Shown here in pieces: positions 24,001 through 64,000 of a stretch of DNA of 64,000 nt. The stretch's first letter is position 1. The number at the start of each line of letters is the position of its first letter. The stretch lies in assembly GCA_965202585.1 (NCBI GenBank), contig OZ241833.1:47554001-47618000 (forward strand), written 5' to 3'. A program made the position numbers. This DNA comes from Thalia democratica (lineage: Eukaryota).

Positions 24001-27000
24001 ATTGCTGGTGTGATTTTTTTGTTGTAGCGCCGGTGAACACTTACTTGGGGATTTGAGCTTCATGATATTCTCACACTTTGTGGTTTTTAGTGTTGAGATT
24101 TTAGCCTTGTGAGTGTTCTCCAAATAGCGTGTCACCAAGGGCTTTTTTTATTTGTTTAAAAGATAGTTTTTGTTTATTTTATTTTTGAATAGTTAAAGTT
24201 AAATATTAATGTGGCAGGTAAAATTACATATGATGTAACACACTCACTTTTCCCTAGAAAACGTTTATTGTTGCAATGGGTAGAGTTTGAGACTGATTTT
24301 TTTTTTACCATAAAAAAAAAAAAATAAAGTAGTTTTGTTAATTTTGGTATCTGGTGTTGTTAAAGAAAGGTTTCATTAAGTAAAATTGAAATAATTATAT
24401 CTGATTAAAATACTACAAAACATTTTTAGGAATTTAATAATTATTGAAACGTTAAAGTTTATCTATTTCTTTATAGTACGAGTTTAAATTTGAAGTTGTT
24501 AAACTATATTAAAAAAAAAAAAAATTGTATAAACCAGTAATGCTCTTTAACAAAAATAAAACTATATACTTAAGGCGTTGACTAATAGCTATTTTTGCAA
24601 AAGTATAACTATCTGCTTGAATGACTTGTATTTTTTTTATTCTTACAATTAACTTCACTATAGTTCATATATATAATAAGTAGTTTTTAAATCACCAAAC
24701 TAATAAGAAAACTCTGTTTATTAATTGATTTTAGAAAAAAAGCGAGATTTTTTTAAATTATAAAAAATAATGTTGAATCAATTAATAAAAAAATAAAAGA
24801 TAAAATTTTCTAAACAAGTAAAAAATAAATTGAAATTTTAACAAGGTTAGTACGTAAAAAATTTTAAACTAGTTTTGTTTGTGCTGAATTTTTCAAAATA
24901 AATGAAGTTGGCAGCACATACTTCATAAAAAAATAATTAAAAACAAAAAAGGCACATCATATACTTTTGGCCCGGAAATTACAAAAACATTCAAAAAAGT
25001 AGCGATGTTTTAAAGATAATTAAGTTTTAAATAATATAAGGTATTAACGAAATCGAAAAAAATAAAATTTGTTGAAATTTTATAACAGTATGACAAAAGT
25101 AAAACACACTGAAATATAGTAAAATGCTGTTAGATGAATGTTTATAATAGTTTTGTATTTTTATTGTACAGTTTTTAGGTAGACTTAAAAGCGCTAAAAT
25201 AGAAGTTATTGAGGTTAAAAACAAAAAATCTCATAACATGTTCTATACTAAGAATACTTTCAAAAAGTAAAGTTATTGAATCTAACTAAAAAACAGTAAA
25301 TTTAAAATAAAACTTATAAACGTTGAAAGAGCGATTTAAAGTTTTGCTATGACGTCACAACTAAACAACTAGGACTTTTCAGAGCTCTAATAACCATTAG
25401 AGGCCATCATAAAAGCTCAAAGGACAAAAAGGCAAGTTCTTGGCACTGCGGCCCCGACCGTAAACCTTTAACACATTTTTATATAAAAAAGTACCGTTGA
25501 CGAGACGCTCGTTCTGAAATTAATAAGAGAATAAATATTTTTGGAAGAGCTACTCAAGACCGCTTCTTTTTCCTGTCAAGTTTGTCTTCAGTCGTCCTTG
25601 GACGATTCCTTGTTGTACTTTGTCATCAGGTTTTCCCACTCAGGCAGCAGGTAATCGGCGAAAATCTCGTTGTCGACTTTGTACGCGTTCAACTCGCTTG
25701 CCAAAATCGCTCCTAAAAGTTTTAAAAATACTTGGATGAACGGTATTTTTTAACAATATGTATATTTAATAGCATTCAGTTCGTCTTTAAGAGTTAAATG
25801 TATCGAAAATAGGCTGTATTTAAATATTGTATAATAATAGGAGGAAACAAATAAAAGACAAATCTTTTATCAATACAATCGACTAGATTTTAAAAATATT
25901 TTTGTAAACCTTTTTTTTCAAACTCAAATAATTTTTTACAATACAATTATAGCAATGGTGTTATTTTTTTTCAGAAACATCTAAATTTTTTTTTTTAATA
26001 AACTGAATTGAAAGTATTAAGGTACCTAAAGTCTTAAAACTTTTTTAATTTTTATTTTCTACACTAAAAAACCTTAGTCGTAGGTTGGTTGCATACAAAG
26101 AATAGAAGTTTGTAATAAAAATATTAAACTAAATACACAAAAAAATAAGTTAATTCCAAACCTTTAGTCTTAGGTTGGTTGCATACAAAGAACAGGCATC
26201 CGTTGTAATCCACGTGCAGCTGCAATGTGACGTCACAATGAGGTCTGACGACCTCTAGTGGACATCTTTCAGGTTGGGGAGTCAAGTCGAGTTCGGTGGA
26301 CAGTTGGATCTGGTATTTGACGAAGGACACCGCCCATACGTTGAATGTTTGCAATCTATTAGAAATAGAAAAATACCTTGTAAATAGTTTTGTTTAACTT
26401 TGTTTCAATTAAGTTAAATTAGGGCGATGTCGCCAAATTTGGGGCTGTCAAGTAACCAGTAAGGCGGCAAAAAAGTAACCAACTAGATATCTAATAAAGA
26501 AGGCGAATAATTTTAAACTTCAAATTTTTCTCAAGAAATATAAATCTCTCCTTTAGTTTAATAATTCTTAATTACAATTTCAAAAGTGTAATGTTATTTT
26601 CGATCATGGATCTAACTAATCTGTAAAAATTTTGAAAAACTTTAAGTAATTTTTATTTTTTACTAGTAAGTTATTAAGTGAAACATTTTAGAGTGTAGTT
26701 ATACATATCTCTGTAATTAATTATTATACTTTACCTCCACTTATTGTATTGTTCTCTCCATTTGTTATTTTCATCATTTTCTGTGTACTCTACCATGTTT
26801 CTTGCGTTCGGATCAACTTTAAAAAAACAAACATGTTGAAAACTTTATTTCTGCATACGAAAATAAGTGCACGTATAATTTACATTGAAAAACTATTATG
26901 ATCTATAAGCAAGCAAACTGTAAAACAACAATAAAATAAAACTTACAAAAAATCTAACATACAGTTGAAAACTTGTATTTAATATTTTTATTTACGTTTT

Positions 27001-63000: not shown

Positions 63001-64000
63001 GGTTTCAAAAAGTACACTTCAAACAAAAAACAGTACAATTATTTCATGTAGCGTGTTGCTACAATTTACAGCTATTTAAGTTTGAAAACTGGCACAGTGA
63101 AAATTGATTTAGTTAACCAAATCTAATTCTATTTTAACAAACAAATATGTATAGTTTATAAGTTATATTGGATATTGACTCCTGAACACGAATGGGGCTT
63201 TATTTCTACAATATAAAATAATATAATTTATATAAACAAATAAATATTAACCTGCACACGAATGGGGTGCACTGCCTGGGTTGGTAGCTGCCACTAGCGG
63301 TGCAGTTGGGCAGCATGTCGAACAAAGCCTGCCTGGTTTGTGGGTCCTGGATCTGGCTGAGTTGGCGCTCCAGCTCGCGTCTCTGGTCCGCACACAGGGG
63401 CTCGGTACGCGCTGTTATAATTGGTTATTCATAAACCAACTAGTGAGTAGCTAGTTAGTTTCGTTCAAGTGTATGGTTTATTCCCGACTTCGTTTAATTT
63501 ACTATGACTCTGCTGTGTTTTTATCACACTAGATAAAAGTTTACCGGAAGTTTTTAAATATTTAGTTAATAGATGCGTTTTTTTTTTTGTTTGCATTCTG
63601 TTTAGTATAGTGATATGTTTTATATAAAATAATTGATTACTGTTCAGCGTTATTTTTTGCGTTTGTAGTTAACTAGTCGTAACATTGTTTTCTTAAATAT
63701 AAAATCATGTAATACATTTAATTTATAATATTTTTACTATATCTACTTTTTTGTAATTAACAACACAAAGCTATAAAAATAAATGCGGTAACACATATAG
63801 TTCATCGATAAACAACAAACCTGGTTTTGTAGTTTCCACTGCTTGGGTTGTTTCTTCAGGTTTTGGTGTGGCTTCCCAAGTGATGATAGCCTCAGTGGCA
63901 AACTCAGTTGTCAGGATTGGCTTAACAGTGTTGTACAGTTCTAAAAAAATATTATATTGACCAGTGTAGTTAGCAAAATTTTATAGTTTTAAAATATATT

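What the first reader, a model, noticed from the sequence alone, without database searches (positions are those of the whole stretch)
26060..63270. Splice-junction echoes: about 10 introns carry copies of the adjacent exon end plus splice site
Donor echoes seen: 63181-63197 (of 63251-63267); 62195-62211 and 62038-62056 (of 62315-62333); 49560-49574 (of 49716-49730); 26068-26107 (of 26160-26197); array 54050-54292. Acceptor echoes seen: 58982-59002 (of 58919-58939); 59352-59365 with 59420-59451 (of 59253-59316); 54785-54806 (of 54541-54562); a diverged copy at 42790-42825 (FTTKQGTQSPVT versus FTTEETTPSPVT); array 52780-52975. Known: tandem duplications spanning a junction can be tolerated because the spare copy becomes intronic. 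Inference: this is a main route of intron growth here and leaves decoy splice sites that could tune splicing or NMD.
Basis: partly seen in the sequence, partly recalled or inferred. Interest (0 to 1): 0.65.

Follow-up and report, generated by a model that had tools for sequence, protein, structure and literature searches.

The report
Splice-site copies stranded inside introns
In one large repeat-built animal gene, about one splice junction in ten has a spare copy of the exon edge and its splice signal inside the neighbouring intron; these are leftovers of small local duplications, a known kind of event that is unusually frequent here.

Summary
On my own 65-exon model of the minus-strand gene (26162-63940), a probe test found a copy of the exon end plus splice site in the adjoining intron at 7 of 64 donors and 6 of 64 acceptors (at least 20 bits). 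Mismatched probe/intron pairs gave 10 and 4 of 4032. No echo was inverted, and none came from exon interiors. Nine listed echoes and both arrays are confirmed. 49560-49574 is borderline, 42790-42825 is not supported, and 26160 may not be a junction. Three good echoes are new.

Two sites are clear head-to-tail arrays whose end unit spans the boundary. Two more still show flanking intron similarity. The rest are isolated patches ending within 1-8 nt of the splice site.

Best reading: short tandem duplications across junctions, with the spare copy stranded in the intron and its AT-rich part decaying fast. Junction events are about tenfold commoner than local duplications elsewhere. Composition and decay bias explain only part of this.

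Echo sites score as well as the real sites, and using any of them would give a premature stop. Use in vivo is untested. Traceable duplication covers about 7% of intron length, so "main route of intron growth" is not shown. The closest analogue is the human F7 intron 7 minisatellite.

The parts
26162..63940 (-). Host gene on my own 65-exon model. It has thyroglobulin type-1 repeats at the 5' end, a TIL-like exon, then about 25 FN3-like units with threonine-rich linkers. Most units are split into a long exon and a short exon, and nearly all introns are phase 1.
   Evidence: ORFs; gene model; Pfam Thyroglobulin_1 on single exons; the long-exon profile has tenascin FN3 domains as its best PDB hits, but only at E 0.3-0.45.
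54039..54307 (-). Donor array. The last 12-15 nt of exon 54293-54550 plus GT plus 25-43 nt of intron are repeated five more times inside the intron. Four of the five echoes keep GT.
   Evidence: TRF periods 38-87; sequence read; echo donor scores 6.6, 4.2, 8.4 and 7.9 against 7.3 for the real site.
52778..52985 (-). Acceptor array. The unit is a branch-point-like motif, a T-run, AG and the first 23 nt of exon 52702-52800. There are three upstream echoes, and the exon-side copy is the real one. The 113-nt higher-order period shows at least two rounds of duplication.
   Evidence: TRF periods 57 and 113; sequence; alignment of units; intron-side 15 nt match 13/15 and 12/15, with 0 of 63 null pairs as good.
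63181..63267 (-). Donor echo 63181-63197 of the exon end 63251-63267 (16 of 17 identical, 70 nt apart). The echo has lost GT.
   Evidence: (30.1 bits).
62026..62333 (-). Exon end 62313-62333 with two donor echoes, at 62193-62213 and 62035-62056. The distal one is part of element 62026-62056, which reads as the upstream exon end joined directly to the downstream exon start, like the spliced junction.
   Evidence: two-sided score 39.0 bits against a mismatched-pair maximum of 24.8; 13/15 and 12/15 matches with 0 of 63 null pairs as good.
61877..61899 (-). Acceptor and start of exon 61815-61891, echoed at 62026-62048.
   Evidence: 22.8 bits.
59257..59451 (-). Acceptor echo 59406-59451, with 59352-59366, of the acceptor and first 55 nt or so of exon 59195-59313. 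The echo carries an insertion of about 41 nt.
   Evidence: 47 bits; 45.2 bits.
58918..59002 (-). Acceptor echo 58982-59002 of the acceptor and start of exon 58846-58936 (20 of 20 identical core, 64 nt apart). A further 10-nt piece of the exon follows after a deletion of about 19 nt.
   Evidence: 37.6 bits.
57663..57856 (-). Donor echo 57717-57747 of the exon end 57826-57856. This is a tandem unit of about 105-109 nt whose intron part is still alignable (72% over 90 nt).
   Evidence: (flank score beat all 300 shuffles).
54540..54935 (-). Tandem duplication of about 240 nt. It comprises the 3' part of the intron and the acceptor and start of exon 54293-54550. The acceptor may be at 54550 or 54559, both in frame. 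The echo is at 54785-54935.
   Evidence: z 17.9; 71% over 161 nt.
49562..49728 (-). Borderline donor echo 49562-49573 of the exon end 49717-49728 (11 of 12 identical).
   Evidence: 20.2 bits; the echo donor scores 8.3 against 9.3 for the real site.
44339..44508 (-). Donor echo 44339-44374 of the exon end 44473-44508 (78% over 36 nt). It is also present in the paralogous copy at 22326-23134.
   Evidence: (28.9 bits).
37726..37936 (-). Acceptor echo 37905-37936 of the acceptor and start of exon 37555-37749 (81% over 32 nt).
   Evidence: (28.9 bits).
26068..26195 (-). Echo 26068-26105 of 26158-26195 (89% over 38 nt). Whether 26161/26162 is a splice junction or lies inside a terminal exon is open.
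   Evidence: (49.2 bits).
42790..42825 (-). The listed 'diverged copy'. It is not supported at nucleotide level.
   Evidence: 11.6 bits, about the null median.

Best explanation
The echoes are leftovers of short local tandem duplications, with units of about 40-250 nt, that happened to span an exon-intron boundary.

Such a duplication leaves the mRNA unchanged, because the copy next to the exon body keeps working as the splice site. That is the 5'-most copy for donors and the 3'-most for acceptors. The spare copy simply becomes intron.

Some sites duplicated again and became small arrays. Afterwards the AT-rich intron part of each unit is scrambled quickly by run-length changes and indels. The G+C-richer exon-derived part stays recognisable, helped by the exon copy being held constant by selection. 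What remains is an isolated island made of an exon edge plus a splice site.

The spare sites are probably mostly silent decoys. Any use of them would give a transcript with a premature stop.

Shown: the duplications, their anchoring to junctions, their direct orientation, the intact and strong splice signals, and the stop codons. Inferred: the tandem origin of the isolated echoes, the decay scenario, and silence in vivo.
For: - Two clear head-to-tail arrays have an end unit that spans the boundary.
- Two further sites have alignable intron flanks: 57663-57856 at 72% over 90 nt and 54540-54935 at 71% over 161 nt.
- The acceptor array's 113-nt higher-order period shows repeated duplication at one site.
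- Own probes score at least 20 bits at 7 of 64 donors and 6 of 64 acceptors. Mismatched pairs do so in 10 of 4032 and 4 of 4032 cases.
- Inverted echoes: 0 of 64 and 0 of 64.
- Exon-interior probes: 1 of 131, against a null of 1 of 262. The copies are therefore contiguous with the junction, as a spanning duplication predicts.
- In the donor array the exon-derived core differs by substitutions, while the T-runs vary in length; TRF gives 7-17% indels.
- For 58982-59002 the exon-derived part extends to about 48 nt once a deletion of about 19 nt is allowed. Indels therefore do truncate the apparent echoes.
- Echo-bearing introns are longer: median 474 nt (n=11) against 270 nt (n=53).
- Precedent: the 37-bp minisatellite in human F7 intron 7, whose first unit spans the exon 7 boundary and whose pseudo-sites stay silent (PMC1557585, abstract).
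Against: - For most isolated echoes the 15 nt on the intron side are no more like the site's own intron flank than like unrelated introns. Examples are 4/15, 4/15 and 5/15.
- Gapped flank tests were null for 62318, 26162 and 37749.
- This holds even for young-looking echoes with 94-100% identical cores. Simple substitution decay would predict flanks about 80-90% identical there.
- The junction excess exceeds what uniform placement predicts. With composition and doubled decay allowed for, 9-30% of detected events should touch a junction. Observed: 10 of 14, p 0.0017 at the most lenient setting. Something beyond plain neutral duplication, or faster indel decay than I modelled, is needed.
- Element 62026-62056 joins the exon end to the next exon start in spliced order. 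A single junction-spanning genomic duplication cannot produce that.
- Everything rests on one gene, and on junctions from my own model without RNA evidence.
Confidence: 0.62

Rival explanations
1. Junctions are true hot spots, or the echoes are kept by selection. Either exon-intron boundaries suffer short duplications at a raised rate, for example through transcription- or splicing-linked breaks or template switching, or spare exon-edge and splice-site copies are retained because they help splice-site choice.
For: - About tenfold excess. Ten junction events fall in about 6 kb of junction neighbourhood. That compares with 4 events in 25 kb of intron interior and 4 noncoding events in the 26 kb left of the gene.
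- The excess survives partial G+C matching: 0 of 43 intron probes against 13 of 122 junction probes at G+C of 0.30 or more, p 0.017.
- It exceeds my most lenient bias model, p 0.0017.
- 17 of 19 echoes keep GT or AG, and they score like real sites.
Against: - Retention of GT or AG is not above neutral expectation (p 0.13).
- The echo shared with the paralogous copy shows no more conservation than other stretches of that intron.
- Indel decay of AT-rich intron was not modelled and could widen the persistence bias.
- Only 7 to 12 intron probes reach exon-like G+C.
- This is one gene only.
Confidence: 0.15
2. Short templated patch insertion. Breaks in the intron were repaired by copying 15-45 nt from a nearby template (polymerase-theta or MMBIR type repair), giving isolated echoes without flanks.
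For: Isolated echoes have unrelated spacers and no flank similarity. The spacers are not dispersed repeats within the window.
Against: - Templates would be arbitrary, yet no exon-interior echoes occur: 1 of 131 against a null of 1 of 262.
- No inverted echoes occur: 0 of 128.
- Few intron-to-intron patches occur.
- Echo ends coincide with the splice site to within 1-8 nt. Random template choice does not predict that.
Confidence: 0.08
3. Intron birth or rebuilding from a multiplied exon segment. This would apply to intron 61892-62317 only. A short exon segment containing AG|GT was tandemly multiplied and the intron runs across the copies, as in the Rogers model and as reported for a 24-bp segment in fission yeast genes. 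Alternatively the fused element was copied from spliced RNA.
For: - Element 62026-62056 reads as the exon end followed directly by the next exon start: 39.0 bits against a null maximum of 24.8, with 13/15 and 12/15 matches and 0 of 63 null pairs as good.
- The mRNA junction is AG|GT.
- A precedent is described in PMC4974935 (passages) and PMC3443670 (passages).
Against: - The signature of this model is that the intron start resembles the next exon start and the intron end resembles the previous exon end. It is at chance level across the gene: 1 of 64 and 1 of 64 above the 99th percentile, and not in this intron.
- The cores are 120-157 nt apart with unrelated AT-rich spacers.
- The first thyroglobulin repeat has an intron at the same codon position with a very similar acceptor. 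That suggests the intron is older than the echo.
Confidence: 0.07
4. The echoes are relics of decayed whole-exon duplicates. The gene grows by exon duplication, and each echo would be the last surviving piece of a dead extra exon.
For: The gene is built of about 25 paralogous two-exon units. Pieces of it lie elsewhere in the window.
Against: - At four donor sites the echo lies closer to the real site than one exon length: 109 nt against 208, 43-55 against 258, 155 against 588 and 134 against 372.
- No exon-interior remnants are found.
- The echoes match their own exon, not paralogues.
Confidence: 0.04
5. The matches are chance or low-complexity sequence.
For: The introns are AT-rich, with a median probe G+C of 0.23.
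Against: Twenty block-shuffles gave 3 matches in all against 35 real ones. The mismatched-pair null rate is 0.1-0.25% at 20 bits.
Confidence: 0.01

Closest known systems
[quoted passage not shown] 2006, PMC1557585; I read the abstract and outline)
   Same: It is a head-to-tail repeat whose end unit contains exon nucleotides plus the donor site. The authentic donor is therefore followed by near-identical pseudo-sites, and the copy next to the exon is the one used. The donor array 54039-54307 has exactly this structure.
   Different: Here at least 13 junctions of one gene are affected, acceptors as often as donors. Most cases are one or two decayed copies rather than a live array, and the genome is an AT-rich non-vertebrate-like one. 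Silence of the pseudo-sites is not tested here.
Intron gain by tandem genomic duplication of an exon segment containing AGGT (Rogers model; ATP2A1; a 24-bp segment multiplied in fission yeast genes), as described in PMC3443670 and PMC4974935 (passages only)
   Same: Tandem duplication supplies spare splice sites, the intron runs across the copies, and the mRNA is unchanged. Element 62026-62056 looks like an internal copy of such a segment.
   Different: Here the junctions already existed and the duplication only lengthens the intron. The predicted signature at intron ends is absent in 63 of 64 introns for each end.
Internal gene duplications (Gao and Lynch 2009). The paper is not held; I know it only from citations in the passages and from recall.
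   Same: Partial duplications inside genes, including ones that carry splice sites, are reported to be common.
   Different: I could not check whether that paper measures an excess at junctions or describes short echoes like these.
Short direct repeats at the ends of newly gained introns (Li et al. 2009 in Daphnia; six Drosophila cases in Farlow et al. 2010, PMC2809761; passages only; its supplementary dot-plots were not seen)
   Same: These are also direct repeats that overlap splice sites and are attributed to break repair.
   Different: There the two repeats sit at the two ends of one new intron. Here the echo lies inside an existing intron, 43-277 nt from the site it copies, and the two-end signature is absent.

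Membership tests
Tandem repeat whose end unit spans an exon-intron boundary (F7 intron 7 type) | Head-to-tail repeat units abutting the boundary | tested here: met
   Met for 54039-54307 and 52778-52985 (TRF). Met with gaps for 57663-57856 and 54540-54935. Inconclusive for the isolated echoes, which lack flank similarity.
Tandem repeat whose end unit spans an exon-intron boundary (F7 intron 7 type) | The unit contains exon nucleotides plus the splice site | tested here: met
   The echo cores hold 10-42 exon nt plus 1-8 intron nt. 17 of 19 keep GT or AG.
Tandem repeat whose end unit spans an exon-intron boundary (F7 intron 7 type) | Pseudo-sites are as good as the authentic site | tested here: met
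   Scores come from a position weight matrix trained on this gene's own sites. Echo donors score 10.8, 10.2, 9.6 and 8.3 against real sites at 10.8, 10.8, 8.8 and 9.3. Array echoes score 4.2-8.4 against 7.3. The 99th percentile of intronic GT is 8.4.
Tandem repeat whose end unit spans an exon-intron boundary (F7 intron 7 type) | Only the copy next to the exon is used; pseudo-sites are silent in vivo | not testable with these tools
   No transcript data. Reading frames show that use of any echo gives a frameshift or an in-frame stop.
Intron created by tandem duplication of an AGGT exon segment (Rogers model) | The intron start copies the downstream exon start, and the intron end copies the upstream exon end | tested here: not met
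   1 of 64 and 1 of 64 own pairs exceed the 99th percentile of mismatched pairs, which is the chance level.
Intron created by tandem duplication of an AGGT exon segment (Rogers model) | Internal copies read as uninterrupted exon sequence across AG|GT | tested here: inconclusive
   Met only by 62026-62056. No other donor or acceptor echo shows it.
Transposon-derived or introner-type intron sequence | The same element occurs at many places | tested here: not met
   BLASTN of 12 echo-bearing stretches against the whole window found only the local echoes, (TA)n runs and the known paralogous copy. This covers the window only; the genome could not be searched.
Recursive (ratchet) splice site | A strong acceptor directly followed by a strong donor (AG|GT) | tested here: met
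   5 of 39 intronic AGGT sites have both scores at or above the 10th percentile of real sites, and 4 of those 5 are echoes. This shows motif resemblance only.
Recursive (ratchet) splice site | Stepwise removal of the intron through the site | not testable with these tools
   No RNA data. The introns are short (258-643 nt), where recursive splicing is not expected (recalled knowledge).

The most novel reading that the evidence does not exclude
Exon-intron boundaries in this genome are genuine hot spots for short tandem duplication, or else exon-edge copies are selectively retained. Junction echoes would then be a directed, recurrent source of intron lengthening and of strong decoy or ratchet-like AG|GT sites. 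At least one echo, 62026-62056, would have been copied from a spliced or unsplit template rather than from the genomic junction. That would point to an RNA-templated patch, or to an intron rebuilt from a multiplied exon segment.
Probability: 0.15. Interest if true: 0.75.

Novelty: new member of a known kind. Interest (0 to 1): 0.45.

Why it matters
- One gene supplies more than a dozen natural "duplicated splice site" experiments, at donors and acceptors alike. In each, a real site competes with an equally strong copy 43-277 nt away. That makes a compact test bed for how the spliceosome picks the exon-side copy, and for how much mis-splicing NMD removes.
- If the roughly tenfold excess at junctions holds genome-wide, it would bear on how introns lengthen and on whether junctions are fragile.
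- The echoes are an annotation hazard. My first naive gene model took four of them for tiny exons.
- If the excess turns out to be only a persistence bias, the finding is ordinary neutral debris of a known kind.

Tried and rejected
- Homologues of the gene. The 571-aa ORF 39795-41510, searched against longer proteins, gave no hits, so there is no database protein to check my exon model.
- Species. The kelch ORF 2174-2962 has a best hit at 40% identity, with no same-species protein. The species stays unknown.
- Joined exons. All protein searches used single exons or ORFs. I neither built nor searched a joined spliced protein, so the identity of the full-length protein is unchecked.
- Rfam, whole window: no family.
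- Pfam on FN3-like exons: nothing. The profile search of the PDB gave only weak tenascin FN3 hits.
- Rogers signature: negative.
- Dispersed repeat or transposon origin of the spacers: none within the window.
- Inverted echoes: none. Exon-interior echoes: none.
- Special conservation of the echo shared with the paralogous copy: rejected, because equally long perfect runs occur elsewhere in that alignment.
- Selection for or against GT and AG in the echoes: not detectable (p 0.13).
- The paralogous short exon at 53707-53805 has no array upstream. The array therefore postdates that unit duplication, but the flanks were too diverged to reconstruct the ancestral state.
- Assembly artefact: rejected by reasoning. 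False duplications are long and near-identical, not 17-46 nt at 78-100%.
- Gao and Lynch 2009 could not be read.
- Literature. Five searches of the open-access library found no paper reporting a gene-wide or genome-wide excess of junction echoes. Subscription journals are not covered.
- Not available. The genome collection holds only bacteria and archaea, so I did not use it. No orthologous or population sequence could be examined. Paper supplements were closed; the dot-plots of Farlow et al. might bear on the comparison.
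Full report
**What the window is.** The window is 64,000 bases with no N and about 29% G+C. It does not look human. Positions 26162-63940 hold one large gene on the minus strand. Single-exon Pfam scans find thyroglobulin type-1 repeats at its 5' end, at the high coordinates. The first halves match the first part of the model, and the exons that follow match positions 44-67. 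Next comes a TIL-like exon, and then about 25 divergent units. Each unit has a threonine-rich linker and a beta-rich module. Most are split into a long exon ending in a P-L-x-P-G-like motif and a short exon of about 84 nt starting T-x-Y. I call the modules FN3-like from that pattern and from the profile's best PDB hits, which are tenascin FN3 domains. Those hits are weak (E 0.3-0.45), and Pfam sees nothing.

**Gene model.** No database protein matched. I therefore built the exon model myself. I used a codon-usage and splice-matrix chain, then added the short exons by hand. The result is 65 exons and 64 introns, with 25,251 nt of intron and a median intron of 288 nt. All junction coordinates rest on this model, not on RNA. 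All protein searches used single exons. I did not build or search a joined coding sequence, so the full-length protein was never identified.

- Every listed pair is visible when the two stretches are printed together.
- An offset scan of 26000-64000 used offsets 8-500, composition-weighted scores and a 26-bit threshold. It gave 35 matches in 18 events. Twenty shuffles that keep local composition gave 3 matches in all.
- In the sharper test, 40 nt of exon edge plus 8 nt of intron were scored against the adjoining 300 nt of intron. The same probes against the other 63 introns served as the null. At 20 bits or more, 7 of 64 donors and 6 of 64 acceptors have an echo. The null gave 10 of 4032 and 4 of 4032, so 0.16 and 0.06 false hits are expected.
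- Reverse-complement echoes: 0 of 64 and 0 of 64.
- Probes from exon interiors, at least 40 nt from any junction: 1 of 131, against a null of 1 of 262.

The echoes are therefore direct, anchored to the junction, and specific to their own exon. Of the listed items, 49560-49574 is borderline (20.2 bits) and 42790-42825 is not supported (11.6 bits). The 26160 "donor" may lie in a terminal exon. Three good echoes are new, at 57717-57747, 44339-44374 and 37905-37936.

**Anatomy.** Two sites are live arrays.
- After exon 54293-54550, the last 12-15 exon nt plus GT plus 25-43 nt of intron recur five times. Four of the five echoes keep GT.
- Before exon 52702-52800 the unit is a branch-point-like motif, a T-run, AG and the first 23 exon nt. 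It recurs three times, with a 113-nt higher-order period that shows at least two rounds of duplication.

Two more sites still show the tandem unit with gaps: 57663-57856 and the roughly 240-nt duplication at 54540-54935.

The remaining echoes are isolated patches of 12-46 nt at 78-100% identity, lying 64-179 nt from the site they copy. Their similarity ends 1-8 nt beyond the splice site. The next 15 nt on the intron side are no more like the site's own intron than like unrelated introns. For 58982-59002 a further piece of the exon follows after a deletion of about 19 nt, so indels do truncate echoes.

**Are junctions favoured?** Within this window, yes.
- Of 14 noncoding events in the offset scan, 10 touch a junction. 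It is 9 of 13 without the doubtful 26160 site.
- Intron interiors hold 4 events in 25 kb. The 26 kb left of the gene holds 4 noncoding events. Both rates are about 0.15 per kb, against roughly 1.6 per kb of junction neighbourhood.
- A simulation placed copies uniformly. It allowed for the higher information content of exon sequence and for doubled decay of intron-intron pairs. It predicts that 9-30% of detected events touch a junction. The observed share has p 0.0017 even at 30%.
- With partial G+C matching, intron probes give 0 of 43 against 13 of 122 for junction probes at G+C of 0.30 or more (p 0.017). At 0.25 or more the figures are 2 of 153 against 13 of 128 (p 0.001).

Against this, I did not model indel decay of AT-rich sequence. 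Very few intron probes reach exon-like composition. The sample is one gene.

**Would the echoes matter for splicing?** I scored sites with matrices trained on this gene's own sites.
- Echo donors score 10.8, 10.2, 9.6 and 8.3 against real sites at 10.8, 10.8, 8.8 and 9.3. Array echoes score 4.2-8.4 against 7.3.
- Echo acceptors score 5.9-9.5.
- 17 of 19 echoes keep GT or AG, which is not more than neutral decay predicts (p 0.13).
- Use of any echo would add 43-277 nt and give a frameshift or an in-frame stop.
- Four of the five strongest intronic AG|GT double sites are echoes.

I have no transcript data. The echoes are plausible decoys, but nothing shows that they are used or that they tune anything.

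**Age and growth.** The echo at 44339-44374 is also present in a paralogous fragment of the gene at 22326-23134, which is 83% identical. The echo therefore predates that duplication, and it shows no special conservation there. The close paralogue of exon 52702-52800 has no array. Echo-bearing introns are longer, with a median of 474 nt against 270 nt (p 0.0013), though long introns also offer more target. The span from real site to farthest echo sums to 1775 nt. That is 7% of all intron sequence and 28% of the 11 affected introns. This is a lower bound, but it does not show a "main route" of growth.

**The odd one.** Element 62026-62056, in the intron of the second thyroglobulin repeat, reads as the upstream exon end followed directly by the downstream exon start, which is the spliced order. 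It scores 39.0 bits against a null maximum of 24.8. It matches 13 of 15 and 12 of 15 positions, with 0 of 63 null pairs as good. A single genomic duplication across one junction cannot make this. Two origins are possible: an intron running across a multiplied AG|GT exon segment, as reported for fission yeast genes (PMC4974935 passages), or a patch copied from spliced RNA. Against the first, the expected signature at the intron ends is at chance level. In addition, the first repeat has an intron at the same codon with a similar acceptor. I leave this unexplained.

**Comparison with what is known.** The donor array has the same structure as the human F7 intron 7 minisatellite, whose first unit spans the exon 7 boundary. 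Its pseudo-sites are functional but silent, because the most upstream site is chosen (PMC1557585, abstract). Reviews list tandem duplication as a source of new introns and treat duplication of pre-existing splice sites as a separate, trivial class (PMC3443670 passages). Direct repeats overlapping the splice sites of new introns are described for Daphnia and Drosophila (PMC2809761 passages), but there the repeats sit at the two ends of one intron. I could not read Gao and Lynch 2009. Five searches found no report of a gene-wide excess of junction echoes, in an open-access library only.

**Verdict.** Its kind is known: tandem duplication across a splice junction leaving pseudo-sites. What is unusual is the density, about one junction in ten at both ends of introns, and an apparent tenfold preference for junctions that bias explains only in part. 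The claims about intron growth and NMD tuning are not established.

Noticed in passing
15196-16853 (+) and 22326-23134 (+): Inverted partial copies of gene segment 43514-45385, 83-89% identical, probably pseudogene fragments. The second copy has lost the original donor of the 44478 exon through a 24-nt deletion but keeps the echo, which there still has GT.
   Followed up: partly
16998-17652 and 19745-20262: A large 31-nt minisatellite with a 124-nt higher order, about 20 copies, and an inverted second array of about 17 copies. Both read as long open frames purely because of the repeat.
   Followed up: no
11544-11922 and 6002-6762: A 35-nt tandem array of about 11 diverged copies, and another local-duplication cluster that I did not look at further.
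   Followed up: no
2174-2962 (+): A 262-aa kelch-repeat open frame. The best database relative is only 40% identical, and the named hits are animal kelch-like proteins, so the species seems absent from the protein collection.
   Followed up: partly
14158-14757 (+): Two adjoining open frames with a RING-finger-like cysteine and histidine pattern followed by a coiled, lysine/asparagine-rich stretch. This was judged by eye from the ORF list only.
   Followed up: no
all donors of the gene, 26162-63940 (-): The donor consensus from 39 confident exons is CAG|GTTGGT-like. T is common at the third intron position, where most animals prefer A or G.
   Followed up: no
62198-62222, 59439-59479, 49564-49583, 42791-42808: A naive splice and codon gene model took these echoes for tiny exons. 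They are an annotation hazard.
   Followed up: yes
47859-47914, 49933-49997, 51378-51421, 40222-40334: In-frame tandem repeats of 12, 24, 18 and 84 nt inside the threonine-rich coding linkers. The same local duplication process is therefore visible within exons.
   Followed up: no
30368-30708 and 36054-36142: The only clear purely intronic duplications: a tandem duplication of about 188 nt and a 28-nt array of three copies.
   Followed up: partly
62197, 62040, 59000, 49563: Four of the five intronic AG|GT sites that score well both as acceptor and as donor are echoes. They have the look of recursive (ratchet) splice sites, although the introns are short.
   Followed up: partly
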